A stretch of DNA of 64,000 bases from an uncultured Ectothiorhodospiraceae bacterium (GCA_945787715.1 CALZJE010000003.1:6088-70087), one strand, 5' to 3'; positions 13,702 to 32,304 are shown, numbered from the stretch's first letter. The notes: generated from the letters alone by a model not told the origin. Numbers and translations are program-made.

Positions 13702-13822
13702 ATAATATTTTCGGCATAAATAATGTATTTATTACAGTAAGCAGCTTTAGCTATCTTTAGTTTCGTGATTTGATAATTAACCCAGCCGAATTAAATTCGA
13801 AGTCTTTCTTTTCTTTTCCCAC

Positions 13823-14082
13823 AGTTATCCACTTCCTCTAATAAATAATATATCTATATATAAAAACTTATTGTTATTATTGGTTCAATCATTTTTGTGG
13901 TTAAGTTTCGATTTAGTTATATTTTTCATCATCTTACTGAGAGTTTTTTGTATTAACAAATTGTATAAATATACTTAACTAAGCTGTGGGTAACTTGTTC
14001 ACAAAAAGCGTTATTTTCCGTTCCGATTTTCTATTAACAAGTTATCAACAGTCTATTCCAATTTTATACACGTGTTTTTAAG
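13823..14082. repeat. DnaA-box module copy A
   Basis: Aligns along its length with 14462-14724. Examples: ATATATCTATATATAAAAAcTT.. against ..aTT.., and TAAGCTGTGGgTAACTTGTTcACAAA against TAAGCTGTGGaTAACTTGTTtACAAA. Both copies end in ..TTATACACG.GT..TTTAAG. Confidence 0.7.
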
Positions 14083-14461
14083 AATAAATGGCGATCTACG
14101 AGTATTTACCGTTACTAGGTTAGTTAAATACCAGTATTTTTTATGGATATGATTATTACTCGATTCAAACGCAGTGCTTTATTGCAGAAATGCTTTTAAA
14201 ATGACTGATAATTATTAACCACTCTTTTCACATTTACTCTCCAAAATAAAACATTTCTATTATTAGGGGAATAAGAGTTGAATTTAGTGATAATATTTCT
14301 TATAAGAATTTTTTGGCTTTTTACAGATCTTCAAAAACTTTCTACCGGCATAAAATTTGAATCTAATTTATTAAACATATTAACCCCTTTATGTTTTTGG
14401 CTGCTGGTTTGAGACTTCCCCTTAAAACTCAGATCAGCAGCTTTCCTTTATTATTTTTCTT

Positions 14462-14724
14462 TAGTTATTAACATCTCTATATATAAATATATATCTATAT
14501 ATAAAAATTTGTTGTTGTTATTGAGTCTAAAATATTTGTGGGTAACTTCTATTATCTTATTATTATTCAATATGTTATTTATCAGTATAAGGCTCAACAA
14601 GTTGTATGGATATACTCATCTAAGCTGTGGATAACTTGTTTACAAATATGGTCTTTTTTACATAGAAAATTTTATCAACAGCTTATACACAAGCTACACA
14701 AGTGTTATACACGCGTTCTTTAAG
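14462..14724. repeat. DnaA-box module copy B
   Basis: Direct repeat of copy A at an offset of about 641 bp. It carries the only perfect DnaA box in the region. Confidence 0.7.
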
Positions 14725-14857
14725 TCAACTTTTGATATTTTTTAACCATTTCCCTCCACTTTTTCAGCTACAATATGCAGTATTTTTTGTAATCCTCCAC
14801 CTGTTGTTATTCTAGGATCGGCTCCTTGGAGTATCTGGAGGTTATGTTTTAATTTTT

Positions 14858-17422: not shown

Positions 17423-17438
17423 TGGCATATGTAATGCT
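17423..17438 (+). promoter_or_regulatory. Sigma-54 (-24/-12) promoter of glnA
   Basis: TGGCAT-ATGTA-ATGCT with GG and GC exactly 12 nt apart, about 59 nt upstream of the glnA ATG. Confidence 0.7.
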
Positions 17439-17496: not shown

Positions 17497-18903
17497 ATGC
17501 CGTCTAACGTTTTAAAGATGATGAAAGAATTTGAAGTGAAGTTTGTTGATTTTCGCTTCTCAGATACTCGCGGTAAACAAATGCATTTAACAGTTCCAAG
17601 TACAGCTGTTGATGAAGATTCATTAAAAGAAGGGATGATGTTTGATGGTTCTTCAATCAATGGTTGGAAGGGCATCAATGAGTCAGACATGATTTTGATG
17701 CCAGATCCAAGTACTGCGACAATGGATCCTTTCACTGAAGATTCAACGTTAAACATCGTATGTGATGTTGTTGAGCCAGCCACTATGTCTGGTTATGAGC
17801 GTGATCCTCGTTCTGTTGCTAAACGTGCAGAAGAATTTTTGAAATCTACAGGTATTGCAGATACCGCTTTCTTCGGTCCTGAAAATGAGTTTTTTGTGCT
17901 TGATGACGTTCGTTGGGGTGCTGATATGTCAGGCTCTTTTTGTAAAATAGATTCAGAAGAAGCAGAGTGGAACTCAGAAAAAGTTTATGCCGACGGTAAC
18001 ATGGGCCATCGTCCAGGTACTAAAGGCGGTTACTTCCCAGTACCACCAGTCGATTCTTTGTATGACTTGCGCTGTGCTATGACTACTGCGCTTCAGGAAA
18101 TGGGGCAAGAAGTTGAAGTGCATCATCATGAAGTAGCAACAGCTGGTCAATGTGAGATTGGTGTTAAATTCAACACATTAGTTTCAAAAGCTGACGAAGT
18201 TCAAGATCTAAAATATGTAATTCATAATGTATCGCATGTATATGGCAAGACAGCGACTTTTATGCCTAAGCCGATGGTTGGCGATAATGGTAATGGTATG
18301 CATGTTCACATGTCTCTTGCAAAAAATGGCGAGAATCTTTTTTCTGGTGATGAGTACGGTGGTCTATCTGAAACTGCACTTTTCTACATTGGTGGAATTA
18401 TTAAACATGCGCGTGCAATCAATGCTTTCGCAAATGCTTCGACAAATAGCTACAAACGTTTGGTCCCAGGATTTGAAGCACCAGTTATGCTAGCTTACTC
18501 TGCACGTAATCGTTCTGCTTCTATTCGTATTCCTTATGTCACAAACCCTAAAGGGCGTCGTATCGAAGTACGATTTCCCGATTCAACAGCAAACCCCTAT
18601 TTAGCGTTTGCTTGTATGTTGATGGCTGGTCTTGATGGAATTAAGAACAAAATCCATCCTGGTGATGCAATGGATAAAGATCTATACGATCTTCCACCAG
18701 AAGAAGAGAAAGAGATCCCACAAGTATGTTTTTCTTTCGATCAAGCATTAGAAGCACTAGATAAAGATCGTGAATTTTTAACTGCTGGTGGTGTATTTAC
18801 TGACGACATGATCGATGCTTATATTGATTTGAAAATGGAAGAAGTAACACGTTTACGCATGACAACTCACCCAGTTGAGTTTGATATGTACTATAGCTGT
18901 TAA
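17497..18903 (+). CDS. glnA: Glutamine synthetase type I
   Basis: 468 aa. [15 protein letters not shown], the [19 protein letters not shown] motif, the adenylylation-loop region NLYDLPPEE and ASIRIP. Confidence 0.97.
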
Positions 18904-20891: not shown

Positions 20892-22307
20892 ATGGCAAAA
20901 AAAGAACATATTTGGGTCATTGATGACGACAAATCAATTCGCTGGGTGTTAGAGCGTGCTTTAAGCAAAGCGGATATGGATGTTGATTGCTTTGAAAGCG
21001 CTTCAGGTATTCTCGATAAACTATCAAAAGGATTACCGGATGCGATAGTTTCGGATATTCGCATGCCAGGACAAGATGGTTTGGCGCTTCTTTCAGACAT
21101 TAATAAAGCTTATCCTGATCTCCCAGTAATCATTATGACGGCTCACTCCGATCTGGACAGTGCGGTATCGTCCTATGAAGGCGGTGCATTTGAATATTTG
21201 CCTAAACCCTTTGATGTTGACGATGCAGTTGATCTGGTAAGACGAGCAGTGGATCATAGTAGAAGTGCTACTACTAACGTCAGTGAACAAACTGAAGCTA
21301 CACAAACAGAAATTATTGGCGAAGCAGCAGCGATGCAGGAAGTGTTTCGAGCGATTGGGAGATTATCTCGTTCGAATATCACCGTTATGATAAATGGTGA
21401 ATCTGGGACGGGTAAGGAGCTTGTTGCGAGTGCACTTCATCGCCATAGTCCAAGAGCGTCTAATCCTTTTATCGCACTAAATACCGCTGCTATTCCAAAA
21501 GATTTATTGGAATCAGAACTATTTGGTCACGAAAGAGGTGCTTTTACTGGCGCGCAAACAACACGACGTGGCCGTTTTGAACAGGCTGATGGCGGAACAT
21601 TGTTTCTTGATGAAATTGGTGATATGCCCGCCGATTTACAAACTCGGCTTTTGCGGGTTTTAGCATCTGGAGAATTCTATCGGGTTGGTGGTCATGATCC
21701 CGTTAAAGTCAATGTTAGAATTATTGCAGCCACACACCAAGACCTGGAAGAGCGAGTAGGTAAAGGAAAATTCAGGGAAGACCTATTTCATCGTTTAAAT
21801 GTTATACGTATACATTTACCCGCCTTACGTGAAAGGCAAGAAGATATTCCACTATTGTTAAACTATTTTCTCGTTCGAGCAGCGAAGGAATTAAGTGTTG
21901 ATGTAAAAAGATTAAGGCCTGAAACTGCAAAGTTTTTGAGTCAGTTACAGTGGCCAGGTAATGTAAGACAGTTAGAAAATGTGTGCCGCTGGTTAACTGT
22001 GATGGCCCCAGGTCCTGAAATTCATGTAGAAGATCTTCCGGCGGAATTAAGAGAAGATGTGGTTAAAGCAAGCAGCAATTCTGATTGGGAAGGCGCTTTA
22101 AAGCTTTGGGCAAAAAGCAAGCTCTTGGCAGATGATCAAGGTATTATGGAGAATGCGACTCCCAGGTTCGAAAAAATATTGATAGAAGTTGCTTTAGCGC
22201 ATACCGCTGGGCGAAAACAGGAAGCTGCTAAATTGCTCGGAATTGGTAGAAATACACTGACGAGAAAGTTGAAAGAACTCAAAATAATTAGTGACGATGC
22301 AGCGTAA
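20892..22307 (+). CDS. ntrC: Nitrogen regulation response regulator NtrC (sigma-54 activator)
   Basis: Receiver domain (VIDDD..SDIRMPG..LPKP), AAA+ domain [14 protein letters not shown] loop, C-terminal Fis-type HTH. Confidence 0.93.
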
Positions 22308-22631
22308 CACTAGCTCCTGGCTATCTCCACTAACCGGTGAACTTGTACAGCAATCAAACCAATTCCTTGCACTCCAATCTCATACTCAACGGATCTTTTA
22401 AGATTTATCTTATCGGTTCCATTCCCGTATTAAACTTAGAAAAAAGTAGATTCATGAAATATACTCTGAGGGCTGTAACCCAACCCTTGTTTCGCCTAGC
22501 GATATGAAAAGCAATACTTTGTGTTTTTTTGATAGCCAGCTGCCTTTTCTAGGATAAGCCTAGAAAAATCAGTTGATCCGTGATTTAGCGCACAACCACT
22601 TGATTCACTTGGCAATATGAAAAGTATTTGA

Positions 22632-22648
22632 ATCACCAACCTGGTGAT
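22632..22648. promoter_or_regulatory. Perfect palindrome; enhancer (UAS) candidate
   Basis: ATCACCA-ACC-TGGTGAT, i.e. 7-3-7 with the same architecture as NtrC sites, located about 200 bp upstream of the sigma-54 promoter at 22837. Confidence 0.4.
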
Positions 22649-22736
22649 CATAAATATTTTCATTACGCCAATCAAACCGCACACTTGCATGCTAATTTCG
22701 CATCCAACAGATCTTTCTAGGTTAAACGTTTTTAGC

Positions 22737-22752
22737 GCGAAGTTTCCTTCGC
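22737..22752. promoter_or_regulatory. Second palindrome; enhancer (UAS) candidate
   Basis: GCGAAG-TTTC-CTTCGC, about 90 bp upstream of the -24 element. Related TTCGC motifs are at about 22707 (TTCGCATCC) and about 22790 (CTTCGCTTCGAA). Confidence 0.35.
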
Positions 22753-22836
22753 ATCAATTTACTTCATTATTCAAAAATACGAATCAATCTTCGCTTCGAA
22801 AACATTTAAGTCATTGTTTTATATATGTATTAATCT

Positions 22837-22852
22837 TGGCATTCATTCTGCT
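22837..22852 (+). promoter_or_regulatory. Sigma-54 (-24/-12) promoter of the five-gene cassette
   Basis: TGGCAT-TCATT-CTGCT with GG (22838-39) and GC (22850-51) 12 nt apart. It lies 56 nt upstream of ATG 22908, which has the SD AAAGGAG. Confidence 0.7.
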
Positions 22853-22907
22853 CCTATGCAAGAGATTAGTTTGATGTGATATTCAACCACGAATAAAGGA
22901 GAACAAC

Positions 22908-23627
22908 ATGCATGATTTAGATCAGACCCAACTCGATTATAGCCGTGCAGAGTTTGATGATGACGAGTTTGAGTTAGAAGGGGAGTTCGAAAATGATATG
23001 GCTGTGTCAGGTGCTGATGAATATGAGGATGAGGATGAGTTTGAAAGTGAATATGAGTTCGAATCCAACTTTGATGGAAACAGTCCTTTTAGTGAAGCAG
23101 AGGAAATGGAGCTTGCTGCGGAATTAATGGAAATTGCAGACGATGGGGAATTGGAATATTTTCTAGGTAGGCTGATTAAACGCGGCGCTCGACGGGTTGG
23201 TCGTAGGCTACGTAAACGTGTAGGTACACGGTTGAGAAAGGGGTTAAAAAGACTTGCTAAACGCGGTTTGAGATTCGCAGGTGGAGCTGTTGGTGGTGCG
23301 TTAGGTGGTCCTGTTGGAGCCGTGGTAGGACGAGCTGCGGGTCGTGGATTGGGAAAAGTGTTTGGACTTGAATTAGAAGGTATGAGTCTGGAAGACCAAG
23401 AGTTTGAAGCAGCGCGTCAATTTGTTCGGCTTGCAGGTGATGCTACCTCTACTGCAACAGCAATTCCCTCTTCTGTTAATGAAGAAGTTGTTGCTCACAA
23501 GGCGCTGAAAAGATCAGTGGTAAAATTTGCACCGGGACTCGCAGGTAAAACCAGACGCTCTGTTCGTGGAGAAAAATCTGGACGCTGGGTTCGTAAAGGT
23601 TCTAGCATCATTCTAATGGGTGTTTGA
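22908..23627 (+). CDS. Tripartite acidic / poly-cationic / glycine-zipper protein (candidate pro-toxin or pro-peptide)
   Basis: 239 aa. Residues 1-85 contain 35 D/E and one Arg (DEYEDEDEFESEYEFES). Residues 88-122 contain 18 R/K and no acidic residue (RLIKRGARRVGRRLRKRVGTRLRKGLKRLAKRGLR). Residues 123-153 contain 12 Gly (AGGAVGGALGGPVGAVVGRAAGRGLGKVFG). The tail is basic (..GRWVRKGSSIILMGV). Strong SD; first gene after the sigma-54 promoter. Confidence 0.7.
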   Translation: MHDLDQTQLDYSRAEFDDDEFELEGEFENDMAVSGADEYEDEDEFESEYEFESNFDGNSPFSEAEEMELAAELMEIADDGELEYFLGRLIKRGARRVGRRLRKRVGTRLRKGLKRLAKRGLRFAGGAVGGALGGPVGAVVGRAAGRGLGKVFGLELEGMSLEDQEFEAARQFVRLAGDATSTATAIPSSVNEEVVAHKALKRSVVKFAPGLAGKTRRSVRGEKSGRWVRKGSSIILMGV

Positions 23628-24946
23628 GTCCCATGACTACCCCGCTGGTACGACAAGTTCTGAGCAATGAGACTCAAGCACTGATGGCTCGTCTCAGAGG
23701 AATTAAGCCGTTTTCCTTACATGTGCCGATGGTTGCTGCCGCTGCTTTGCAAACTTCAGCTCAACAATTGATAGAGCAGCATATGCACAGGGTATTGTCG
23801 TCAGTCGCTCAGATGCTCGGAACATATGAAGACTGGTTAAATAGTGAGGCGGGGCGTCGAACCAAAGATGCCACTGCACAGCGACATCTAACACTGGTGA
23901 GATTGCGTTTCCATGCAGCATTGACGCAGTTTGATCTTTTTTCAGATGTACTTACTCAGCGTAGTGAACATGAGTTTGGTGTCTGGCTCGCTGGACTTGA
24001 TGCACTAGCAGTGGATGCATTAAAAATAGAAGGAAAATACTTCGAACTGCCAGGTGTCGCGTGTTATCTAGATCGAGGAATAGGTGCTGCTATTCGACGG
24101 GTACGTACACGCTTACCTGGCGGGCGTGAAAATCCTGTTGCTATAATTCGAGTTCCTCGTGAGCGGATGATTGGCTCAGGCATCGCTTCATCGTTGGTTC
24201 ATGAAGTCGGGCATCAGGGTGCTGCGTTGCTAAACCTTGTGGAATCATTACGAAAGGAATTGCAGAGAAAAATTCATTCTGACGGATCGCCGTGGCGTTT
24301 ATGGCAACAATGGATATCAGAAATCATTGCTGACTTTTGGTCTGTAGCGCAGATCGGTGTGGGTTCTACTTTGGGTTTAATGGGTGTTGTTAGCTTACCG
24401 CGTGCATTTGTATTTAGAATTAGTGAAGAGGATCCTCATCCTTCACCGTGGATACGAGTCATGTTGAGTGCATCGATTGGCCAAGCCCTTTATCCGGATT
24501 CTCAATGGCGTCGTCTTCGTGAAGTTTGGATGCGTCTTTATCCGCGCACAGGTATCGATCCGGAAAAGGAACAACTGTTTCAAGGTTTGGAAGCTACGAT
24601 ACAGGAGTTTGTTGAGTTATTAACTCAACATCGGCCACGAACACTAGAAGGGATATCATTGTTAGAAATTTTCCCTGTTTCAGATAGACAACCAGATCGG
24701 TTAAGAAACTTATATGGTCAATGGTCAGGGAGGTTTAACGCTTGGCGCACCTCGTCCCCGGCGTTAGCGTTTGCCGTTATCGGACAAGCACGCGCTGATG
24801 ATCGACTAAGTGTATCAGATGAATCGAATCTTATTAATAGACTATTAAACCATTGGGCATTCAATCGAAATGATTTAAATAATCAATGCGGATGTAGACC
24901 TAAGGCGAATGCATATTCAACTGCAGTTATATCTACTGCGTTATAA
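23624..24946 (+). CDS. Orphan HExxH (gluzincin-like) putative metallopeptidase
   Basis: 440 aa. SSLVHEVGHQG (H193-H197, nt 24200-24214) with a candidate third ligand E233 in WISEIIADFW. The TTG 23624 / ATG 23633 start overlaps or abuts the upstream stop, which suggests translational coupling. Confidence 0.55.
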   Translation: MSPMTTPLVRQVLSNETQALMARLRGIKPFSLHVPMVAAAALQTSAQQLIEQHMHRVLSSVAQMLGTYEDWLNSEAGRRTKDATAQRHLTLVRLRFHAALTQFDLFSDVLTQRSEHEFGVWLAGLDALAVDALKIEGKYFELPGVACYLDRGIGAAIRRVRTRLPGGRENPVAIIRVPRERMIGSGIASSLVHEVGHQGAALLNLVESLRKELQRKIHSDGSPWRLWQQWISEIIADFWSVAQIGVGSTLGLMGVVSLPRAFVFRISEEDPHPSPWIRVMLSASIGQALYPDSQWRRLREVWMRLYPRTGIDPEKEQLFQGLEATIQEFVELLTQHRPRTLEGISLLEIFPVSDRQPDRLRNLYGQWSGRFNAWRTSSPALAFAVIGQARADDRLSVSDESNLINRLLNHWAFNRNDLNNQCGCRPKANAYSTAVISTAL

Positions 24947-24957
24947 GGAGTCTTGTA

Positions 24958-26826
24958 ATGAAACAAATAGATAATATATCGATTATACAATCTCACCATG
25001 CCGTAGTGCCGGACGGTGCAGTTTCTCTACGCTTATCAGAGAACTATGTAGATGTAACAAAGTACACATATATTTGGCGTACTCCTGAATCGTTGGGTGA
25101 GTTTAATTATATTGATCAACCCAATGTTATATGGACCGCTCCATTAAAAGCAGCAGGTGTGGTAGAAATAAGCGTAGAGATTATGCCTAAAAGCGGACAG
25201 AGTGGAGGTAAGAAACGCAATACACGTGCTTCATCGGAAAATTCCACGGCTGAATCTACACATCTCGAAAATATAGAGACAATAATCATCTCAACTACGG
25301 TGGAAGTTACGCCAAATGCTTTGCCTTTAGATGTAGTTGGTGCGATTGGAGAAGGTGTTAAGGCTATCAAAGAGGGTCTACCCGGTCAGGAAATACGTTT
25401 GGAGCGACAATTTCCTGCGCTTACGCCTCAAAAATCATTGTGGGCTATTATTCGCGACCGTACCAATGCAATTTCATTTAACAATTACAAAGCATTTATC
25501 GACTCGATTATGTGTGGCGGTGATACCTATCACAGCAAACAGATTCCCCATGAAGTTAAAGAATATGTCAATTTTGATCCGAGTAAATTGCACTACCGAG
25601 GTACCGAGTCGTATGAGGTTTTACGAAAAGCGACAGAAGCATTTCTGATGCATGAAATTGGTGCTTTACCCACTCCCGTAAATGAATCTGAAAAATTTCC
25701 CTTAGCAGACCCTGCTGAACAAAAACGGCGTTTACCACAACTCGCGGGTTCAAATGACGAAGAAGTTCAAATGGAAATGGAAAGTAATCGAACTGAATAT
25801 TTAAAAACATTGGAAGACGAAAGTCGGACCTTTCCTTATTTTAAACTTATCCGCGATCGTTTAAGTGAGATACCCCTTAAACCTCCTGGCTCATCAGGAG
25901 AAGGATGTTATGGATTATTGCGTTCGCGAATTTCACCACCAATTTTACTAGAATTAATCTGGTCTTATTGGCACGAAGAAGGAGGTTTGGTGCAAACAAT
26001 GAAAGCCATTAATATGCGCTTTCAGAACCGTTTATATAATCCACGTAAAAATGGGAGCGATCCGTTGGCTAATCTTAACTTGGATCCGTTACGTCCTATG
26101 AGCAATATTATTTGGGGATATATTCAAAATGAGCACGAGCATTTAACGTTATCAAGACGCGCTTATGAATACGATCATCATTATGGATTCAGTATCGCCG
26201 GAAAGGCAGTACCCAAACTCAACTCTGCCGATAGCCGTACTAAATTTTTAGAGGCGTTTCACAGTCTTCTTCATCGTGCCTCGGTGTTTTACAAAGAGCA
26301 ATCTGATACAACTAAAGTACCCGATGGTTATCCGTTGCTAAATGGATTGAAGGAATGTCATTTGTTGCTGGCTGAAGGTGCACATAACCAATTTGGTGAT
26401 TTACCCTGGACAGCGCGTATTGAAATGCTCATCGAGCAATGGATGTTAGCGCGGCCAGAAACACGGAATTTTTTGAACCGACGAGTGATGGTGCCTTACT
26501 CAGAAGAGTGGATGCCAGCGGTTGATCAAATGAAAGACTTGCAAGGTTGGTCAGGTGGTACCGTGCGTCATTTTCGAGATCTAGGAACGTTCGGTGAACA
26601 AATCTTGTTGTCAGTACGTTATGGAGATTGGAGTGAAAATTTTAATGAAGATGAAGCCAAAATCTGGGCTCAGTATTGGCGACAGGAGATTCAAGGTTAT
26701 ATCAATGCGTATCGTTCAGTAACGAGTGTAGACTTGGGATCGGATGCAGATCTGGCAAATGCTACGCTATCTCGTCAACGATCGACTGCACCTGCCGAGT
26801 TATTGAAACAGCAAGGTACTCGTTGA
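24958..26826 (+). CDS. Large hypothetical protein, no recognisable domain
   Basis: 622-aa uninterrupted ORF with SD AAGGAG 7 nt upstream. An N-terminal ~75-aa beta-rich module and a Ser/Gly/Lys linker are followed by a Trp/His-rich helical body (LLELIWSYWHEEGGLVQTMKAINMRFQN). Confidence 0.6.
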   Translation: MKQIDNISIIQSHHAVVPDGAVSLRLSENYVDVTKYTYIWRTPESLGEFNYIDQPNVIWTAPLKAAGVVEISVEIMPKSGQSGGKKRNTRASSENSTAESTHLENIETIIISTTVEVTPNALPLDVVGAIGEGVKAIKEGLPGQEIRLERQFPALTPQKSLWAIIRDRTNAISFNNYKAFIDSIMCGGDTYHSKQIPHEVKEYVNFDPSKLHYRGTESYEVLRKATEAFLMHEIGALPTPVNESEKFPLADPAEQKRRLPQLAGSNDEEVQMEMESNRTEYLKTLEDESRTFPYFKLIRDRLSEIPLKPPGSSGEGCYGLLRSRISPPILLELIWSYWHEEGGLVQTMKAINMRFQNRLYNPRKNGSDPLANLNLDPLRPMSNIIWGYIQNEHEHLTLSRRAYEYDHHYGFSIAGKAVPKLNSADSRTKFLEAFHSLLHRASVFYKEQSDTTKVPDGYPLLNGLKECHLLLAEGAHNQFGDLPWTARIEMLIEQWMLARPETRNFLNRRVMVPYSEEWMPAVDQMKDLQGWSGGTVRHFRDLGTFGEQILLSVRYGDWSENFNEDEAKIWAQYWRQEIQGYINAYRSVTSVDLGSDADLANATLSRQRSTAPAELLKQQGTR

Positions 26827-26863
26827 TGCCCATGTTTCACCTCAACTCTTACTACTAGGAGGG

Positions 26864-27694
26864 ATGATAATGTTTGAAGATGGAGATTACGATGATTTAC
26901 GTGAGGAAAAGTTTCTGAACTGGCCAGAAAGGAACAGACCTCCACGCCTAAAAAGTCGGATTGCTGCCCTACATCGTTCTTATTCGCCTGATCCAGTAGG
27001 TCGGGTTCAGCGTAATAACTCAATACGATCAAAAGATGATATGGTGGAATTTAATTTTTCAGGTTTAGAAGTAGACGGATTTATTTCACGAGAGGTAGAA
27101 GATGAACAGTTTCTAAATTATTTATGGCCATTCTCATCAGATCCCAATATTGTGGATCGCACAGCTTATTCACCTAAGTCTAAGCGAAAGAAAATTCGAG
27201 ATATTGATACAGTTTATGCACTGGTTTTACATCAAGCAGGCTTTAGTCGTGGAAATGATCCTAAAAAATATAATAATGTGACTTCTCATTTTGTCATTAT
27301 GCCAAACGGAACTATTCTTCAACTCCACCCTTTGACTGCCTATTTATATTCTTCCAATGGGTTTAATCGGGGTAGTGTAGCTGTTGAATTTATCGGTAAT
27401 TTTCCTAGCGAGCGTGGCAGATGCTGGAAACCTGAAAAGTATGGTTGTAATCAGGTTTCAAACGATCAAATTGAGGCAGGTCGACAATTAATTAGATATT
27501 TAAGGAAAAAAATAGGGCTGACTCACGTGTTGGCGCACCGTCAATCGAGTGGTTCGAGAGGCAATGATCCGGGGCCAGACCTTTGGCACCAAGTTGGGCA
27601 ATGGGGTGTAAATAAGCTAGGGCTAAATGATGGGGGGCATGGTTTTAAAATTCAGTCGGGTAAGGCAATTCCTGATTCATGGCGTAAAACTTAG
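26864..27694 (+). CDS. N-acetylmuramoyl-L-alanine amidase, amidase_2 (AmpD/PGRP/T7-lysozyme) fold, no signal peptide
   Basis: YALVLHQAGFS (first His ligand), GSVAVEFIGNF, and LAHRQSSGSRGNDPGPDLW (His, then Asp 10 residues later, followed by DPGP). About 110 aa of unassigned N-terminal extension precede the domain. The likely start is ATG 26870, downstream of AGGAGG. Confidence 0.8.
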   Translation: MIMFEDGDYDDLREEKFLNWPERNRPPRLKSRIAALHRSYSPDPVGRVQRNNSIRSKDDMVEFNFSGLEVDGFISREVEDEQFLNYLWPFSSDPNIVDRTAYSPKSKRKKIRDIDTVYALVLHQAGFSRGNDPKKYNNVTSHFVIMPNGTILQLHPLTAYLYSSNGFNRGSVAVEFIGNFPSERGRCWKPEKYGCNQVSNDQIEAGRQLIRYLRKKIGLTHVLAHRQSSGSRGNDPGPDLWHQVGQWGVNKLGLNDGGHGFKIQSGKAIPDSWRKT

Positions 27695-27730
27695 ATCGAA
27701 AAACCATTAAATATAATCATTGAAGGAAAA

Positions 27731-28645
27731 TTGGTGAGAGATATGAGGTCTTATGAAGAACTAAGTAGAGTTTCCCATGAAAATGGCAAAGATAAAGAGT
27801 TTTATTATAAGTCGAAGGTTAGACCGGTTTCTAATTCTATGGGTGATTTTAGTCAACAGGAAATTGTTGACGATTTTGACGATAGAAAAAGACTTGGCAG
27901 TATCAAAGATACACCTTATAGGTGGATATGCATGCTGGATTTGCACACAAAAAGTGGATTATTTGGTGGGACTGGAGTACTCATTTCCCCCAGACACATT
28001 CTTACGGCTGGGCATAACCTAGATGGTTGTAATAAAGTAGTAGTGGTGCCTGGAATTAATGGTCGCTTCAAGCCATTTGGAAGTTACGAATCTACAACGA
28101 TGATTGCCCACGATAAATGGAAAAAACATAGAGACGATAATTTTGATATTGGCATGATAAAACTTTCCAAACCGGTTGGGAATCAAAGGTTTAATTCAAT
28201 AAAGGGAAATGTTCTGGGTCATTGGGGACATTCTGCTTTCGGAATGGGTACGAGAATTATACCATTTGTGCAGAGCAATCAATTAAACAAAAAAGCAAAT
28301 ATTGCTGGTTATCCAAGTGATAAAGGATTTACGCAGCTTTGGTGGGATGCGGGTAAAATTGTCAATACCGCGCCTGCCAAAGCATCAGGAGCAATCTATT
28401 ACACTATGGATACATGTGGTGCTCAAAGTGGAAGTCCAGTTTGGTTAAGAAGTAAAAGTTCAGGAGCAAGATTTTTAATTGCTATACATAGTGGTCCATG
28501 TTTATTAGATGGCTCAGATTGCAAAGAATTATCTGGAAAGCTTTGTCCCGGTAGTAGTTTACGTAAACCACACTCTTCTAATATGGGGGTATTTTTAACA
28601 GCGGGACTAATTAAGACGATTAGAAGTTGGATTCGCTCTATGTAA
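27731..28645 (+). CDS. S1B (V8-like, COG3591-type) trypsin-fold serine endopeptidase, no signal peptide
   Basis: Catalytic triad contexts ILTAGHNL (His), NFDIGMIKL (Asp) and DTCGAQSGSPVW (Ser, GxSGSPV as in V8/SspA). The likely start is ATG 27746. Confidence 0.8.
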   Translation: MVRDMRSYEELSRVSHENGKDKEFYYKSKVRPVSNSMGDFSQQEIVDDFDDRKRLGSIKDTPYRWICMLDLHTKSGLFGGTGVLISPRHILTAGHNLDGCNKVVVVPGINGRFKPFGSYESTTMIAHDKWKKHRDDNFDIGMIKLSKPVGNQRFNSIKGNVLGHWGHSAFGMGTRIIPFVQSNQLNKKANIAGYPSDKGFTQLWWDAGKIVNTAPAKASGAIYYTMDTCGAQSGSPVWLRSKSSGARFLIAIHSGPCLLDGSDCKELSGKLCPGSSLRKPHSSNMGVFLTAGLIKTIRSWIRSM

Positions 28646-28735
28646 TCGCTATTAGAAATAATACCAAACAAATTTGTTCAACGTTATAAGTATTAAAGGT
28701 TTCGATAACTAACAAGTAAGTGTATTAATGACAGT

Positions 28736-30085
28736 TTATGAATGATTTTCTTGTTGCTTGCGCAACTGTAGCGCTCGCGGCGTAATTTTTAATTGCTTTG
28801 CAATCTTCGCGGTAGAGCCATTATGTTCAGCCATAGCAACATCGATAGCAACATCGGCGGCAGCACTACTAATTTCTTTTAAGCCCACGCCCAGTGAGAG
28901 TGCTTTACGAACAGCGGCTTCAAGATCTCCACGGCGCCAGTCACTCGTTTCTCTTGTGATGTTTTGAAATTCATCGTGGGGTATATCACCGATCGTATAT
29001 TGGCCGTCGCAAACATGACGGCCTCGCATGCGTAAGCAAAGCTGTCGAAGATCACGAATATTACCAGGATAAGCACGATTAATGAGATGGTGCTGTACGG
29101 CTGAGTCGAGTTCTGGATTTATATCATTTTGATGACGGAGGAAATGTTTAGCTAACGATAGAATGTCTTCCTTACGTTGTGAAAGTGATGGCAGCGTAAC
29201 GGTCCAATCTGCGAGACGGTAATAAAGATCACGGCGAAAACGCCCTGCTTCAATTTCTTCTAATAAATTTCGATTTGTAGCGCAGACTAGTCTGAAATCG
29301 GTGTCATGCCATGTGTTGCCACCGACTCGTTTGTAACGTTTTTCTTGAAAAACGCGTAGCAGTTGCACTTGAAGATCCAATGGCAACTCGCCGACTTCGT
29401 CTAGAAATAAGACACCACCGTCGGCCCGCGAAAATGCTCCTTCACGTTGACTACCTGCTCCGGTAAAAGCACCGCGCTCGTGACCAAAAAATTCACTGCC
29501 AGATAGGCTTGGGACAATGGTGGCACAATCTACTATGCTAAGTTCCTGCTGACTACGCAGAGGATCTACGGAATGAATAACTTTTGCAGCGAGTTCTTTT
29601 CCTGTTCCCGTTTCACCGTTAATTAAAACTGCATAATCACTAAATCTCGCGGCTTCAACAATTTGCCTTAAGGCCATTAGCCAAGGTATGCTGTGGCCAA
29701 TGACGATATCTTGTATTTCTGGGGAATTAGTGATTTTATTTACTCTCTCCCAACGACGAAGACGTACTGCAATATGGTCAGCTGTTTTACCTTCGTTGTC
29801 CCATAAGACGACGTCACTCGCGCCAGCTTCAATCAAACGATATACATCGTTACTATTTAGGTAGTCTGGGTTTGTGGTTACTGCGATAACGCGCTGTTGG
29901 GTTCTACAAGAGAATTTAGAAATACAGCTATATACATTGTCATCGGCATGATCGAATACGATAATCGCGGCTTTCGCATTATCTTTTGTATCGTCAATAC
30001 AAAAAATCACGCCTCGATTAATGAGGATTTGATGGATCGAATCGCGATTCACTACACCCAAGCAATTTAGGACTGTCCGTGTCAT
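28736..30085 (-). CDS. Sigma-54-dependent transcriptional activator (bEBP) with atypical receiver-like N-domain
   Basis: AAA+ domain with GETGTGKE, an intact GAFTGA loop ([13 protein letters not shown]), Walker B LFLDEVGEL, and a C-terminal HTH (STAKIAKQLKITPRALQLR). The N-terminal ~120 aa are receiver-like, but VLWD replaces the K-P motif. Convergent with the cassette. Confidence 0.9.
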   Translation of the reverse strand: MTRTVLNCLGVVNRDSIHQILINRGVIFCIDDTKDNAKAAIIVFDHADDNVYSCISKFSCRTQQRVIAVTTNPDYLNSNDVYRLIEAGASDVVLWDNEGKTADHIAVRLRRWERVNKITNSPEIQDIVIGHSIPWLMALRQIVEAARFSDYAVLINGETGTGKELAAKVIHSVDPLRSQQELSIVDCATIVPSLSGSEFFGHERGAFTGAGSQREGAFSRADGGVLFLDEVGELPLDLQVQLLRVFQEKRYKRVGGNTWHDTDFRLVCATNRNLLEEIEAGRFRRDLYYRLADWTVTLPSLSQRKEDILSLAKHFLRHQNDINPELDSAVQHHLINRAYPGNIRDLRQLCLRMRGRHVCDGQYTIGDIPHDEFQNITRETSDWRRGDLEAAVRKALSLGVGLKEISSAAADVAIDVAMAEHNGSTAKIAKQLKITPRALQLRKQQENHS

Positions 30086-30631
30086 TTGCCACCTCTGGAT
30101 TCACACTGATTTTTTTGGGTATTACATTACCCATCTTATGTTTATTAGCTACCAGGTAATTACACAGAACCCACAAACCATGTAAATCTAGGGTGGTTAT
30201 TTCATTATGAAATTTGTTGAAGAAAGTCAATCAATCATTGAAATATTATTTATCATGGTAGAAAAAAGGTAAAACTTATAACTGTTTTTTTAAATATTGA
30301 TCAGCAATTCGTTACGATATGAAGTAATGTAGTGAAAATTACCAAAACTTAAAAACTGTGCAGTAGTTAGTACTAAACCATTGTTTTCTTAAAACTTACT
30401 TAAGACTATTTAAAGTGAGTTAATCAGAATGTCAGTAGTCGGATAATCCAATCTTCAAGTGTATTATTTCTCTTGCTGTATCCGGCAATTTAAACAACAA
30501 AATGTAGGCCAACACCGATATACATTGAAAGATATTAGATTCACCGCTTAGTTTCGTTTGATATTGGACAAGGCTATTATTTTTAAATTCTCATAATTAC
30601 GATATGATATTCATTTTTATGAATGTGAATT

Positions 30632-31096
30632 ATGTTTATCGTCGCTCTATACGAACCAGAAATCCCACCCAATACAGGAAATATTATTCGGCTTTGTTCA
30701 AATATCGGAGCTGAACTCCACTTGATAAAACCGCTGGGTTTTGATCTGGATGATAAAAAATTACGTCGAGCTGGATTGGACTATAGTGAGTGGGTGGATG
30801 TTAAAATCCACGAAAACTACGATACTTTTCTTGAGTCATTAGGCTCATCACGGATATTTGCATGTTCAACTCACGGTACTAAACGTTATACTGATATGAG
30901 CTATCGAGATGGGGATGTTTTTTTATTTGGGCCAGAGACTCGAGGTTTACCGAAAGAATTACGGTTGGATTTTCCACCAGATCAAGTGATAAAACTCCCT
31001 ATGGTGCCGAATAATCGAAGCCTGAATTTATCTAATGCAACTTCAATTATTTTATATGAAGCGTGGCGGCAGTTAGACTTTATAGGAGCAGAGTAA
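30632..31096 (+). CDS. trmL: tRNA (cytidine/uridine-2'-O-)-methyltransferase TrmL (SpoU family)
   Basis: 154 aa. ALYEPEIPPNTGNIIRLCSNIGAELHLIKPLGF and LFGPETRGLP. Confidence 0.88.
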   Translation: MFIVALYEPEIPPNTGNIIRLCSNIGAELHLIKPLGFDLDDKKLRRAGLDYSEWVDVKIHENYDTFLESLGSSRIFACSTHGTKRYTDMSYRDGDVFLFGPETRGLPKELRLDFPPDQVIKLPMVPNNRSLNLSNATSIILYEAWRQLDFIGAE

Positions 31097-31101
31097 AATG
31101 G

Positions 31102-32304
31102 CTATTCAGCTTCGATAATTGAAGCGGTTTCGTCACCAGTTTTAAAGTTGAAATTATACTCTGTACTATTTTTGCCTGACTTATCTGTTACAACCAAAGA
31201 GAACTTATGCTCACCTGCGGTTAGAGGAGCTTTCACGCCCTGGCTTTGTAGTGTGGTAAATTCCTTGGTTACCCTTTCGAATAGATTCAAAATTTCTTCA
31301 GTTTGAGGGTTTTGAAAATAAAGACCTTTCCCAGCTTCTGCAATTGCAGTTAAGCTTTGATCATCAATTTTTTCGCCAAGCCCAATAACATGCACAGTAA
31401 GATTATCAATATTACTTATTTTATTGAGGATCGTTGTCAGTGAAGTTTCTATTCGACCTGACATTAGGTATTCCGCTCCACTCGATGTAACAAAAGGATT
31501 GGGGTTTTGATCGGTGAAAGAACTGTTATCAAATTGACTATAATTGTCTGCGCCATCGGAAAAAACAAGCATCACATTTTGATGATTATTTTCTGTATCT
31601 TCTTCACTGGTTTGACTATTAATCAATTCATCCAATGTGTAATCGATAGCTGCATAAAGTTTTGTATACGTTCCATCAACTGGGCTGGGAATAGTTGTGA
31701 TATCCAGCGGTGACCAGTTTCTATTTTCATTATTCACTGCATAATAAATATATGAGTCGAACCAACTGGATTGAAAAGTGAAATCGCCGGTGCGGTTTTT
31801 CCAGAGTTCTTGGCCGGTTTGTACGCTTTTTTGAGCCGCTTGTAACATTAGCTCAAAAGATTGATTAACTTTCATTGAGTAGCTTGTGTCGAGAACCAGA
31901 TTATAATGAACATTGTACGCGAGTTCTCGTGCACTACTGCTCAAATGGTACTCGACATCAAAGTCTTCATCATCGATTTTTAGCTCTACATCGATTTGAT
32001 CAGGTGTGAGTGGGAGATTATTGTCAGTTCTCGGAATGAATTGCAGAACTATATTAGTAGTACCATGATCTCTGTCGTAGCTTATTGTTGGTTTAGTTAC
32101 CAAATCTATTTTAACATTGCCCGAATAGTTACCTTGATTTTCAGTTTCTGAATCTTTGGGTTCCGTTTCTAACTCATTTTGATCTTTATTCTTTTTTTGT
32201 TTATCAATCTCATTGAGATTACCACCACCACAGGAAATAAGTGCGAACGTAAAAAGCATTACTATTACTAAATCATGGCATTTTACTAGCGTTGTTTTTT
32301 GCAT
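31102..32304 (-). CDS. von Willebrand factor A-domain lipoprotein
   Basis: Lipobox FALISC|GGG. MIDAS-like LVLDTSYSM, then MLVFSDGADN and VHVIGLG. Confidence 0.65.
   Translation of the reverse strand: MQKTTLVKCHDLVIVMLFTFALISCGGGNLNEIDKQKKNKDQNELETEPKDSETENQGNYSGNVKIDLVTKPTISYDRDHGTTNIVLQFIPRTDNNLPLTPDQIDVELKIDDEDFDVEYHLSSSARELAYNVHYNLVLDTSYSMKVNQSFELMLQAAQKSVQTGQELWKNRTGDFTFQSSWFDSYIYYAVNNENRNWSPLDITTIPSPVDGTYTKLYAAIDYTLDELINSQTSEEDTENNHQNVMLVFSDGADNYSQFDNSSFTDQNPNPFVTSSGAEYLMSGRIETSLTTILNKISNIDNLTVHVIGLGEKIDDQSLTAIAEAGKGLYFQNPQTEEILNLFERVTKEFTTLQSQGVKAPLTAGEHKFSLVVTDKSGKNSTEYNFNFKTGDETASIIEAE

What the first reader, a model, noticed from the sequence alone, without database searches (positions are those of the whole stretch)
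22308..30631. Insert boundaries: a likely acquired block between ntrC and trmL without mobility genes
The block from the ntrC stop to the trmL start is flanked by two unusually long non-coding stretches (about 600 bp and about 545 bp). Its coding DNA looks GC-richer than the surrounding ~38-40% GC genome by eye, for example at 23200-24900. There is no tRNA, integrase, transposase or obvious flanking direct repeat. That suggests an old or non-canonical acquisition, or a lineage-specific accessory locus.
Basis: inference. Interest (0 to 1): 0.4.

Follow-up and report, generated by a model that had tools for sequence, protein, structure and literature searches.

The report
Sigma-54 cassette inserted between ntrC-trmL
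Six genes (8.3 kb) were inserted, probably long ago, between two housekeeping genes that touch each other in related bacteria; the insert is a self-contained gene cassette with its own sigma-54 switch, found in many bacterial phyla, and I found no description of its function.

Summary
The ntrC stop and the trmL start are 8,324 bp apart. The block is flanked by 600-bp and 546-bp spacers, two of the four longest of 54 in the window. No tRNA, integrase, transposase or boundary repeat is present.

The GC excess is real: 23-24 kb is the richest 1-kb bin, at 0.477. It lies only at codon positions 1+2, because the proteins are rich in Gly/Ala/Arg/Pro. GC3 and codon usage match the host.

Synteny decides the question. 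The two closest relatives found have the same gene order, but ntrC and trmL are 1 and 21 nt apart. None of 160 related loci carries the block there. So it is an insertion, compositionally ameliorated and without a recognisable vehicle.

The cargo is a conserved cassette:
- A: a protein with an acidic N-terminal part, then a basic stretch and a glycine zipper.
- B: an HExxH protein.
- C: a 622-aa protein with no detectable known fold.
- D: an endolysin-like amidase.
- E: a trypsin-like protease.
- R: a convergent sigma-54 activator.

The left spacer holds a -24/-12 promoter and a dyad, both conserved across phyla. A, B and C match no family in Pfam, NCBIfam, PADLOC or PHROGs. Function is unknown. 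My best guess, at low confidence, is a tightly gated effector that is activated by proteolysis and acts on the cell envelope.

The parts
20892..22307 (+). ntrC (left flank, host gene). Its last ~8 residues (KIISDDAA) differ from the relatives' ending (DITES / NITES), so the left junction lies at or just inside the 3' end.
   Evidence: NCBIfam TIGR01818, E 2.8e-223. Junction sequences.
22308..22907 (.). Left spacer (600 bp, GC 0.37). It is part of the insert. Its promoter-proximal ~170 bp is the cassette's sigma-54 regulatory region. The distal ~430 bp is unassigned.
   Evidence: No counterpart in L087/L088, where ntrC and trmL are 1-21 nt apart. Long regions upstream of gene A (300-800 bp) also occur in most of the other cassettes.
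22738..22751 (.). Dyad CGAAG-N4-CTTCG, candidate enhancer (UAS) for the cassette's activator. It starts 100 nt upstream of the -24 GG.
   Evidence: Unique in the window (0.05 expected). An exact dyad sits at the same 100-nt distance in L083, and at 101 and 60 nt in the Myxococcus cassette. One-mismatch copies occur in Nitrosomonas and Rapidithrix.
22783..22796 (.). Second dyad, CGAATCAATCTTCG (one mismatch to the first), 45 nt downstream of it.
   Evidence: Read from the sequence and from the alignment with L083. Myxococcus also has two dyads, 41 nt apart.
22837..22852 (+). Sigma-54 (-24/-12) promoter TGGCAT-N5-TCTGCT. It ends 56 nt before the ATG of gene A.
   Evidence: A GGCA(C/T)-N6-(C/T)TGC element lies upstream of gene A in the cassettes checked from L001, L002, L083, L084/L086, L167 and L169; the scan found none in L168. 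The window's glnAp2-like site at 17423-17438 serves as an internal positive control.
22353..22371 (+). Copy 1 of the motif ATCAAACY-N5-CTTGCA. Copy 2 is at 22671-22689 (+). Copy 3 is at 22857-22875 (-), just downstream of the promoter. Function unknown.
   Evidence: Three matches in the window, all in this spacer; 0.11 expected, and 0 of 100 shuffles reach 3. Not found in L083. Copies 1 and 2 extend to about 55 nt of similarity.
22908..23627 (+). Gene A (239 aa). Residues 1-85 have net charge -34. Residues 86-150 (net +21) hold a basic stretch followed by a glycine zipper (FAGGAVGGALGGPVGAVVG). Conserved features: N-terminal MHDLDxT, the GLELEGMSxEDxEFE block, and the C-terminal GRWxRKGxxIxLMGV.
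   Evidence: No Pfam, NCBIfam, PADLOC or PHROGs family; only sub-threshold glycine-zipper hits. At least 577 homologues.
23624..24946 (+). Gene B (440 aa from the TTG; the database homologue starts 3 codons later). It has an N-terminal helical bundle plus an invariant HEVGHQ motif and downstream E233/D237, so it is predicted to be a zincin-like metallopeptidase.
24958..26826 (+). Gene C (622 aa). It has an N-terminal Ig/PKD-like beta-sandwich (residues ~9-117) and a highly conserved all-alpha domain (~150-622) with many invariant His, Glu, Arg and Trp residues (for example EYDHHYG and AHNQFGDLPW).
26864..27694 (+). Gene D (276 aa), an Amidase_2 (PGRP / T7-lysozyme / AmpD-type) N-acetylmuramoyl-L-alanine amidase with no signal peptide. 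It is an accessory gene, absent from the closest cassette (L083).
   Evidence: Pfam PF01510, E 4.4e-12. Best PHROG family is endolysin, E 6.9e-12. 57% identical to the amidase of the Nocardiopsis cassette; H123 and H225 are shared, and position 235 is Asp here and Cys there.
27731..28645 (+). Gene E (304 aa from the TTG; an ATG lies at codon 5), a trypsin-like serine protease with no signal peptide.
   Evidence: Pfam Trypsin, E 2.2e-9. H95, D139 and S233 are invariant in four cassette proteases. Weak PADLOC hits to protease domains of defence proteins (LmuA, E 3e-6).
28736..30085 (-). Gene R (449 aa), a sigma-54 enhancer-binding protein convergent with the operon. It has an unassigned N-terminal domain (1-125), an AAA+ domain with the GAFTGA motif, and a C-terminal HTH.
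   Evidence: Pfam Sigma54_activat, E 3e-56. GAFTGA read from the translation. The N-terminal domain has no family. Its identity tracks that of the cassette: 71% in L083 and 45-50% elsewhere.
30086..30631 (.). Right spacer (546 bp, GC 0.29). It is part of the insert. It must carry the promoter of R (minus strand) and a replacement promoter for trmL, which abuts ntrC in the relatives.
   Evidence: The promoters are inferred, not located.
30632..31096 (+). trmL (right flank, host gene), intact from residue 1.
   Evidence: NCBIfam TIGR00185, 195.6 bits against a cut-off of 190.6. Residues 1-153 align with TrmL of L087/L088.

Best explanation
The interval 22308-30631 is a true insertion into a junction that is otherwise tight, and in the nearest relatives is probably co-transcribed. 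It was acquired long enough ago that synonymous sites and codon usage have equilibrated with the host. No trace of the vehicle remains.

The insert is one functional unit. It is an operon (A-B-C-D-E) driven by a sigma-54 (-24/-12) promoter, plus its own convergently transcribed enhancer-binding activator, R. The left spacer holds the operon's remote-activation region: two CGAAG-N4-CTTCG dyads about 100 and 55 nt upstream of the promoter. The right spacer holds the promoter of R and whatever now drives trmL.

A-B-C-R is the invariant core of a cassette found in at least eight bacterial phyla. D and E are interchangeable accessories.

Shown:
- the insertion itself
- cassette unity
- the conserved promoter and dyad
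- the catalytic motifs of B, D and E

Inferred (mechanism, low confidence, about 0.3): R senses an unknown signal through its N-terminal domain and switches on an otherwise silent promoter. A is made as a self-neutralised pro-protein. B and/or E cleave it to free the polycationic glycine-zipper part, which attacks the membrane. D, a cytoplasmic endolysin-like amidase, then reaches the cell wall. This would amount to inducible autolysis, abortive defence or a competition module.
For: Insertion:
- L087 and L088 share the window's gene order, but the ntrC-trmL gap is 1 nt and 21 nt against 8,324 bp.
- trmL lies close downstream of ntrC in many other gammaproteobacterial lineages.
- 0 of 160 anchored loci carry A/B/C there.

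Old acquisition:
- GC3, codon usage and dinucleotide signature are host-like.
- In all eight cassettes examined, GC tracks the flanking DNA (0.41-0.75), and GC3 ranges from 0.30 to 0.97.
- The closest cassette, L083 (68-78% amino-acid identity), lies in 0.50-GC DNA with different neighbours.

No vehicle:
- No tRNA, integrase, transposase or boundary repeat.
- C is absent from 50,697 phage records and 2.9 million viral contigs, and present on only 4 of 72,556 plasmids, all megaplasmids.

One unit:
- A, B, C and a convergent activator co-occur in all nine contexts examined.
- The identity of R tracks that of the cassette.

Sigma-54 control:
- A -24/-12 element lies upstream of A in six of the seven other cassettes scanned.
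- The dyad is conserved at the same distance in the window, L083 and Myxococcus.
- R has the GAFTGA motif.
- In Nocardiopsis the cassette includes its own rpoN.

Mechanism hints:
- A has charge -34 over residues 1-85 and +21 over 86-150, plus a glycine zipper.
- B has an invariant HEVGHQ motif.
- E has an invariant Ser-His-Asp triad.
- D is endolysin-like, with conserved His residues at the expected zinc-site positions.
- Accessory genes in other cassettes bind peptidoglycan: PG_binding_1 in Nitrosomonas, and a weak OmpA-like hit in Pelagibius.
Against: The nearest relatives are only 73-77% identical in NtrC and TrmL. The insertion therefore cannot be dated, and presence/absence among truly close relatives was not seen.

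The mechanism is weakly supported:
- A has no canonical transmembrane helix (maximum 19-residue hydropathy 1.36), and none of the six proteins has a signal peptide.
- The protease fold of B was not confirmed by structure search.
- C, the most conserved protein, has no assigned role.
- Half of the cassettes replace the protease and amidase with a BioF/Kbl-type acyltransferase plus Amidohydro_2, which fits a lysis model poorly.
- The promoter and dyad are motif matches, not mapped sites.
Confidence: 0.85

Rival explanations
1. The block is ancestral at this position, and the relatives lost it by deletion.
For: The block is compositionally indistinguishable from the host at synonymous sites. The nearest relatives are fairly distant, at 73-77% identity.
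Against: Loss would have to be precise enough to leave 1 nt or 21 nt between intact ntrC and trmL. It would also have to recur in many lineages in which trmL follows ntrC closely. The cassette sits at unrelated positions in every other genome examined.
Confidence: 0.06
2. The block is a recent horizontal acquisition from a GC-richer donor: a classical genomic island whose mobility genes lie outside the block or were just lost.
For: Total GC is 3 points above the flanks, and the richest 1-kb bin of the window lies in gene A/B.
Against: GC3 (Mann-Whitney p = 0.93), codon usage (z from -1.4 to +0.4) and the dinucleotide signature are host-like. The GC excess is explained by Gly/Ala/Arg/Pro-rich proteins. 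There is no tRNA, integrase, transposase or repeat. The nearest known cassette is only 72% identical at the DNA level.
Confidence: 0.04
3. The block is an assembly artefact: a chimeric contig joining two organisms.
For: The exact-product look-up for gene C found no contig on record.
Against: Proteins identical to A and C, and to B apart from its start codon, are listed from an NCBI source on two contigs, the longer 182.5 kb. Both junctions lie in continuous sequence. Synonymous composition matches the host on both sides. Host synteny resumes exactly after the block.
Confidence: 0.02
4. Functional rival: the cassette is a peptide-maturation (RiPP or bacteriocin-like) locus. A would be the precursor, B and E the leader or processing proteases, and C, together with the BioF-like acyltransferase and amidohydrolase of other cassettes, the modifying enzymes.
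For: Gene A is duplicated in tandem in Geotalea and Nitrosomonas. A has a conserved N-terminal part and a glycine-rich middle. There is an HExxH protein next to it. Other cassettes carry PLP-dependent acyltransferase and amidohydrolase accessories.
Against: A is 205-400 aa long, and its conserved blocks are spread along the whole length, including the extreme C-terminus, rather than forming a leader plus a hypervariable core. No transporter or immunity gene is present in any cassette. No known RiPP enzyme family matches.
Confidence: 0.15
5. Functional rival: the cassette is a Psp-like envelope-stress response. A would be a membrane-binding protein that also restrains the activator R, as PspA restrains PspF, and the enzymes would remodel or repair the wall.
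For: R lacks a recognisable sensor domain, and its AAA+/HTH part scores best against the RtcR_PspF2 model (PADLOC, E 4e-82). A is the first gene of a sigma-54 operon, as pspA is. Accessory proteins in other cassettes bind peptidoglycan. A published comparative analysis links sigma-54 to control of the cell exterior (PMC3162934).
Against: A has no PspA/IM30 match. No interaction between A and R was tested. Two proteases and an endolysin-like amidase are not typical repair functions.
Confidence: 0.15

Closest known systems
Psp system (PspF activator with the sigma-54-dependent pspA operon)
   Same: It has a dedicated enhancer-binding protein without a receiver domain, a -24/-12 promoter with upstream dyads, and a first gene product that probably associates with membranes.
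   Different: A shows no PspA/IM30 homology. The activator is convergent and downstream of the operon rather than divergent and upstream. The cargo includes two proteases, an amidase and the unknown protein C.
Rtc RNA-repair system (RtcR with rtcBA)
   Same: The AAA+ domain of R scores best against RtcR-type models (NCBIfam NF038308, E 2.8e-77; PADLOC RtcR_PspF2, E 4e-82). The operon is a tightly silent sigma-54 unit that spreads as one piece.
   Different: Only the AAA+/HTH part of R matches (residues 122-440). The CARF sensor domain is not matched, and there is no RtcA or RtcB.
Phage holin-endolysin lysis cassettes, and protease-activated pore formers such as bacterial gasdermins
   Same: There is a cytoplasmic, signal-less Amidase_2 whose best viral family is endolysin. 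Proteases are encoded next to a protein with an autoinhibitory-looking acidic part and a membrane-active-looking part.
   Different: A has no transmembrane helix. There is no homology to holins or gasdermins. The cassette is absent from the phage and viral collections.
Genomic islets at conserved junctions (lineage-specific accessory loci without mobility genes)
   Same: Insertion is between two conserved core genes, with no integrase, tRNA or repeats. Other lineages carry different cargo at the same junction: a pilus-usher cluster in L096, and a two-component system with an LTXXQ protein in L106.
   Different: Here the cargo is a complete regulatory and effector unit that recurs across phyla.

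Membership tests
Integrative mobile element / classical genomic island | Integrase, recombinase or transposase gene | tested here: not met
   None of the six proteins matches such a family in Pfam or NCBIfam. The spacers contain no meaningful ORF.
Integrative mobile element / classical genomic island | tRNA/tmRNA target or flanking direct (att) or inverted repeats | tested here: not met
   No tRNA in the window. The longest boundary repeat is 10 nt, reached by 25-29% of shuffles.
Integrative mobile element / classical genomic island | Composition deviating from the host | tested here: not met
   GC3, codon usage and dinucleotide signature are host-like. Only GC at codon positions 1+2 is raised, by amino-acid content.
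Integrative mobile element / classical genomic island | Presence/absence relative to related genomes | tested here: met
   Absent from the same junction in L087 and L088 (1 nt and 21 nt gaps) and in all 160 anchored loci.
Sigma-54-dependent operon with a cognate enhancer-binding protein | -24 GG / -12 GC promoter at the correct spacing upstream of the operon | tested here: met
   TGGCATTCATTCTGCT at 22837-22852. Equivalent elements in six of the seven other cassettes scanned. This is a motif match; the transcription start was not mapped.
Sigma-54-dependent operon with a cognate enhancer-binding protein | Activator with a sigma-54-interaction AAA+ domain and GAFTGA loop | tested here: met
   PF00158, E 3e-56. 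GAFTGA is present in the translation.
Sigma-54-dependent operon with a cognate enhancer-binding protein | Upstream activator sequence bound by the activator | tested here: inconclusive
   The CGAAG-N4-CTTCG dyad is conserved at about 100 nt in the window, L083 and Myxococcus. Binding was not tested.
Sigma-54-dependent operon with a cognate enhancer-binding protein | Transcription depends on rpoN and the activator | not testable with these tools
   Needs mutants and RNA measurements. Indirect support: the Nocardiopsis cassette carries its own rpoN.
Psp system | PspA/IM30-family effector | tested here: not met
   No PspA match for any block protein.
Rtc system | CARF sensor domain on the activator, and RtcA/RtcB genes | tested here: not met
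   The PADLOC and NCBIfam RtcR models align only to residues 122-445 of R. The N-terminal domain has no family. No RtcA or RtcB is present.
Catalogued anti-phage defence systems (PADLOC 2.0) | Match of the core proteins to a system model | tested here: not met
   A, B, C and D have no hit at E <= 0.1. E has only weak protease-domain hits. R hits only generic RtcR/PspF models.
Holin-endolysin lysis cassette | Peptidoglycan hydrolase without a signal peptide | tested here: met
   D matches Amidase_2 and a PHROG endolysin family, and has no N-terminal hydrophobic segment.
Holin-endolysin lysis cassette | Small membrane protein with at least one transmembrane helix | tested here: not met
   The maximum 19-residue hydropathy of A is 1.36 (the glycine zipper). 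No block protein exceeds 1.5.
Zincin metallopeptidases (for protein B) | HExxH motif with a downstream third ligand | tested here: met
   H193, E194, H197, E233 and D237 are invariant in 43 sequences.
Zincin metallopeptidases (for protein B) | Zincin fold recognised by structure or profile comparison | tested here: inconclusive

The most novel reading that the evidence does not exclude
The A-B-C plus activator cassette is a previously undescribed effector system that spans many phyla and is gated by sigma-54. Its core would be a self-neutralised polycationic glycine-zipper pro-protein, a dedicated metalloprotease, and an enzyme-like protein of a new fold. It would be used for inducible attack on the cell envelope, as abortive defence, autolysis or competition. 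It would depend on sigma-54 so strictly that it carries its own rpoN into Actinobacteria, a phylum reported to lack sigma-54.
Probability: 0.3. Interest if true: 0.75.

Novelty: new variant of a known kind. Interest (0 to 1): 0.5.

Why it matters
For this genome, the result settles the question. The block is an inserted accessory unit, and both long spacers belong to it. The insertion also cut trmL off from the ntrBC genes that directly precede it in the nearest relatives.

More broadly, the cargo is a compact cassette that appears uncharacterised:
- Its three core proteins match no family in Pfam, NCBIfam, PADLOC or PHROGs, and no solved structure.
- The core proteins are 40-58% identical between cassettes from different phyla.
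- The profile of protein C matches about 1,400 clusters (at 50% identity).
- The promoter and enhancer architecture is conserved from Gammaproteobacteria to Myxococcus.

The Nocardiopsis version carries its own sigma-54 gene. That makes the dependence on this sigma factor explicit, and it contradicts the published statement that Actinobacteria lack the sigma-54 system (PMC3162934).

Because the unit is small and self-contained (five or six genes and one activator), it is directly testable by heterologous expression.

Tried and rejected
- **Rfam.** The block at relaxed threshold and the whole window at gathering threshold gave nothing.
- **tRNA scan.** Nothing found.
- **Boundary direct or inverted repeats.** Chance level.
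- **Spacers against all 170 fetched loci and the window.** No significant similarity, and no meaningful ORFs.
- **Exact-product look-up of gene C, to identify the source genome.** Not on record. Cluster listing gave no accession or name. The organism stays unidentified.
- **Genome scan with NtrC.** It was useful for broad synteny but not for close relatives.
- **Sequence and profile searches of B and C against the PDB.** Nothing useful.
- **AlphaFold-database fold search.** The library was unavailable.
- **PADLOC and PHROGs for A, B and C.** No hits.
- **N-terminal domain of R.** Only sub-threshold ankyrin-like noise.
- **Phage, plasmid and viral-contig searches for a vehicle.** None found, apart from four megaplasmids whose records carry no usable annotation.
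- **Seven literature searches** on sigma-54, enhancer-binding proteins, glycine zipper, amidase, trypsin, defence and Actinobacteria. None described this cassette.
- **Rejected readings.** A recent foreign island (contradicted by GC3 and codon usage). A classical holin (A has no transmembrane helix). A functional link to ntrC (the cassette has different neighbours everywhere else).

Full report
**1. The observation**

The ORF map and family scans confirm the layout:
- glnA (17497-18903)
- a DUF4124 gene
- ntrB
- ntrC (20892-22307)
- six genes of the block
- trmL (30632-31096)

The two non-coding stretches are 600 bp (22308-22907) and 546 bp (30086-30631). They rank 2nd and 4th of the 54 intergenic gaps in the window.

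The GC impression is correct for total GC. The bin 23001-24000 has GC 0.477, the highest of 64 one-kb bins, against a window mean of 0.388. The excess sits entirely at codon positions 1 and 2 (Mann-Whitney p = 0.004). GC3 is 0.28-0.35 against 0.313 +/- 0.030 (p = 0.93). Codon-usage likelihood scores give z from -1.4 to +0.4. The dinucleotide signature (delta* 44, against 31.5 +/- 9.1 and a maximum of 49) is like the rest of the window. The cause is protein composition: Gly+Ala+Arg+Pro makes up 0.25-0.35 of the block proteins against 0.213 +/- 0.040 elsewhere.

There is no tRNA or tmRNA, no Rfam match and no integrase or transposase. No boundary repeat exceeds chance.

**2. Is it an insertion?**

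A genome-collection scan with NtrC returned 80 loci. I ran tblastn with the window's genes against these loci. Many gammaproteobacteria have ntrC followed closely by trmL, and then gpsA-secB-rhodanese on the other strand. None has the block's genes after ntrC.

A metagenome scan with TrmL found two much closer relatives:
- L087: GC 0.40; GlnA 88%, NtrC 77%, TrmL 75% identity.
- L088: from a 130-kb contig, GC 0.44; NtrC 75%, TrmL 73%, SecB 79% identity.

Both have the window's order: glnA-DUF4124-ntrB-ntrC-trmL-orf400-gpsA-secB-thioredoxin-rhodanese. The ntrC stop and the trmL ATG are separated by 1 nt in L087 and 21 nt in L088, against 8,324 bp in the window. The whole interval, both spacers included, is therefore extra DNA.

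Deletion in all the others would require repeated precise excisions, so I consider it unlikely.

The same junction holds unrelated cargo in other lineages: a CS1-type pilus-usher cluster of 6.7 kb in L096, and an SDR, an LTXXQ protein and a response-regulator/kinase pair of 4.5 kb in L106. It is thus a recurrently variable spot.

One consequence follows by inference. In the relatives trmL abuts ntrC. In the window it is 8.3 kb away and must use a promoter in the right spacer.

**3. How old, and how did it arrive?**

The block's synonymous composition equals that of the host. In all eight cassettes examined, cassette GC tracks the flanking DNA (0.41 to 0.75), and GC3 ranges from 0.30 to 0.97. 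These cassettes are therefore long-term residents wherever they occur.

The closest relative of the window's cassette is a metagenome contig, L083. Its proteins are 68-78% identical and its DNA 72% identical. It lies in 0.50-GC DNA, its neighbours are different, and it has no amidase gene.

Protein C has no relative in 50,697 phage records or 2.9 million viral contigs. It occurs on only four of 72,556 plasmids, all replicons of 1.4-2.8 Mb. No vehicle can be named. Illegitimate recombination, or homologous replacement from a relative that already carried the cassette, remains possible but untested.

**4. What the block is**

The block has six genes.

- **A (239 aa).** No family matches. The alignment of 35 homologues and the window sequence show, in order:
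  - an N-terminus that is nearly invariant (MHD-L/I-D-R-T);
  - a variable run of acidic and aromatic repeats (net charge -34 over residues 1-85);
  - a conserved helix (EEMELAAELLEV...ELExFLG);
  - a basic stretch and a glycine zipper (net +21 over residues 86-150);
  - the block GLELEG(M/L)SxEDxEFE;
  - HAPGL;
  - a conserved extreme C-terminus, GRWxRRGxxIxLxGV.
- **C (622 aa).** It has an Ig/PKD-like N-terminal domain and a strongly conserved all-alpha domain with many invariant His, Glu, Arg and Trp residues. There is no structural match beyond the Ig domain, and no sequence or profile match in the PDB.
- **D (276 aa).** An Amidase_2 enzyme whose best viral family is endolysin. His123 and His225 are shared with its Nocardiopsis homologue, and position 235 is Asp here and Cys there.
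- **E (304 aa).** A trypsin-like protease with an invariant His-Asp-Ser triad.
- **R (449 aa, opposite strand).** A sigma-54 enhancer-binding protein with a GAFTGA motif, a C-terminal HTH and an unassigned 125-residue N-terminal domain.

None of the six has a signal peptide or a clearly hydrophobic helix.

**5. It is one conserved unit**

A, B, C and a convergent downstream activator occur together in every context examined:

| Source | Gene content |
|---|---|
| Pelagibius | A-B-C, an OmpA-like protein (weak hit), trypsin-like protease, then R |
| Metagenome contig L083 | A-B-C, protease, R |
| Rapidithrix | A-B-C, BioF-like acyltransferase, trypsin-like protease, Amidohydro_2, R |
| Geotalea | A-A'-B-C, aminotransferase-family protein, a weak GIY-YIG-like protein, Amidohydro_2, R |
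| Nitrosomonas | A-A'-B-C, aminotransferase-family protein, PG_binding_1 protein, Amidohydro_2, R |
| Myxococcus | A-B-C, BioF-like acyltransferase, a 295-aa protein, R |
| Nocardiopsis | B, rpoN, A, C, Amidase_2, R |

The identity of R follows that of the cassette: 71% in L083 and 45-50% elsewhere.

Family sizes:
- More than 4,451 hits for C and more than 5,431 for B among the scored candidates.
- At least 577 hits for A.
- 1,395 clusters at 50% identity match the C profile among 1.84 billion representatives.

Named sources span Alpha-, Beta-, Gamma- and Deltaproteobacteria, Bacteroidota, Actinomycetota, Chloroflexi, Acidobacteria and Methylomirabilis. All are labelled hypothetical, apart from occasional 'DUF697 family' labels on A.

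**6. Regulation**

A -24/-12 element, TGGCAT-N5-TCTGCT, lies at 22837-22852 and ends 56 nt before the ATG of A. The window's own glnA promoter-like site at 17423 is found by the same search. Equivalent elements precede gene A in Pelagibius, Geotalea, L083, Nitrosomonas, Nocardiopsis (also before B) and Myxococcus. The scan found none in Rapidithrix.

Aligning the otherwise diverged upstream regions of the window and L083 shows conserved islands. The clearest is the dyad CGAAG-N4-CTTCG. It is unique in the window (0.05 expected) and starts 100 nt upstream of the -24 GG in both. Myxococcus has two exact copies at 101 and 60 nt. Nitrosomonas and Rapidithrix have one-mismatch copies, and the window has a second, one-mismatch dyad at 22783. 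This is the expected layout for enhancer sites of R. Binding is inferred, not shown.

The Nocardiopsis cassette encodes its own divergent sigma-54: a full-length alignment to TIGR02395 with E 7e-52, below the curated cut-off. A published survey states that Actinobacteria lack the sigma-54 system (PMC3162934).

**7. Likely mechanism**

What is shown: a self-contained sigma-54-gated operon with two probable proteases and a probable cell-wall amidase.

What I infer, at about 0.3 confidence, runs in four steps:
1. The promoter is silent until R is triggered through its N-terminal domain.
2. A is made with its polybasic, glycine-zipper part neutralised by the acidic N-terminal part.
3. B and/or E remove that part.
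4. The freed polycation perturbs the membrane and gives the cytoplasmic amidase D access to the wall.

Against this reading:
- A lacks a true transmembrane helix.
- C has no role in the model.
- Other cassettes swap the protease and amidase for a BioF/Kbl-type acyltransferase plus an amidohydrolase.

Two rivals cannot be excluded: a peptide-maturation locus and a Psp-like envelope-stress module (about 0.15 each).

**8. Comparison with known systems and novelty**

In regulatory logic the cassette works like the Psp and Rtc modules. It fails their membership tests: it has no PspA, CARF domain or RtcA/B. It also fails the tests for catalogued defence systems, holin-endolysin cassettes and integrative elements (see the membership table). 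Seven literature searches found no description of it.

As a genome feature, the insertion is an ordinary islet without mobility genes at a variable junction. The interest lies in its cargo, a widespread and apparently uncharacterised sigma-54 cassette.

**9. Limits**

- The source organism was not identified.
- The closest relatives are only 73-77% identical in the flanking proteins.
- Promoters and enhancer sites are motif-level predictions.
- The fold of C rests on a model of moderate confidence (mean pLDDT 76).

Noticed in passing
L167 7120-15018 (Nocardiopsis sp. YSL2, GCA_030555055.1): In this 75%-GC actinomycete the cassette is B, rpoN, A, C, Amidase_2 and then the activator. It carries its own divergent sigma-54 gene and has -24/-12 motifs before both B and A. 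A published survey states that Actinobacteria lack sigma-54 (PMC3162934).
   Followed up: partly
window 22353-22371 (+), 22671-22689 (+), 22857-22875 (-): The motif ATCAAACY-N5-CTTGCA occurs three times in the window, all in the left spacer (0.11 expected). The third copy is inverted and lies just downstream of the sigma-54 promoter. It is absent from the closest cassette (L083), so it may be a site for a host-specific regulator. Unexplained.
   Followed up: partly
L096 1214-7865; L106 5467-10000: Other gammaproteobacterial lineages carry unrelated cargo between ntrC and trmL. L096 has a CS1-type pilus-usher cluster. L106 has an SDR, an LTXXQ (Spy/CpxP-like) protein and a response-regulator/kinase pair. 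The junction is a recurrent site of lineage-specific gene gain.
   Followed up: partly
window 30086-31096: In the nearest relatives trmL starts 1-21 nt after the ntrC stop and is probably co-transcribed with it. In the window it is separated by 8.3 kb and must depend on an unidentified promoter in the AT-rich right spacer (GC 0.29).
   Followed up: no
window 13702-14857: This is the longest gap without an ORF of at least 100 aa in the window (1,156 bp, GC about 0.30). It has no tRNA and no Rfam match.
   Followed up: no
L002, L084-L086, L168, L169 (cassette accessory genes): There appear to be two accessory sets. One has a trypsin-like protease with or without a wall-binding or wall-cleaving protein (window, Pelagibius, L083). 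The other has a BioF/Kbl-type PLP acyltransferase, in most cases with Amidohydro_2 (Geotalea, Nitrosomonas, Myxococcus). Rapidithrix has both. Gene A is duplicated in tandem in Geotalea and Nitrosomonas, and is about 400 aa long in Nocardiopsis and some metagenome homologues.
   Followed up: partly
window 31102-32304 (-): A 400-aa ORF between trmL and gpsA has no NCBIfam family, yet it is conserved in position in L087 and L088 (42-44% identity).
   Followed up: no
plasmid records NZ_CP032685.1, NZ_CP032690.1, NZ_CP118611.1, NC_010625.1: Homologues of protein C (39-46% identity) lie on megaplasmids or chromids of cultured strains: Rhizobium sp. CCGE531 and CCGE532, Ensifer adhaerens, and Paraburkholderia phymatum STM815. 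These strains could serve as experimental hosts.
   Followed up: no
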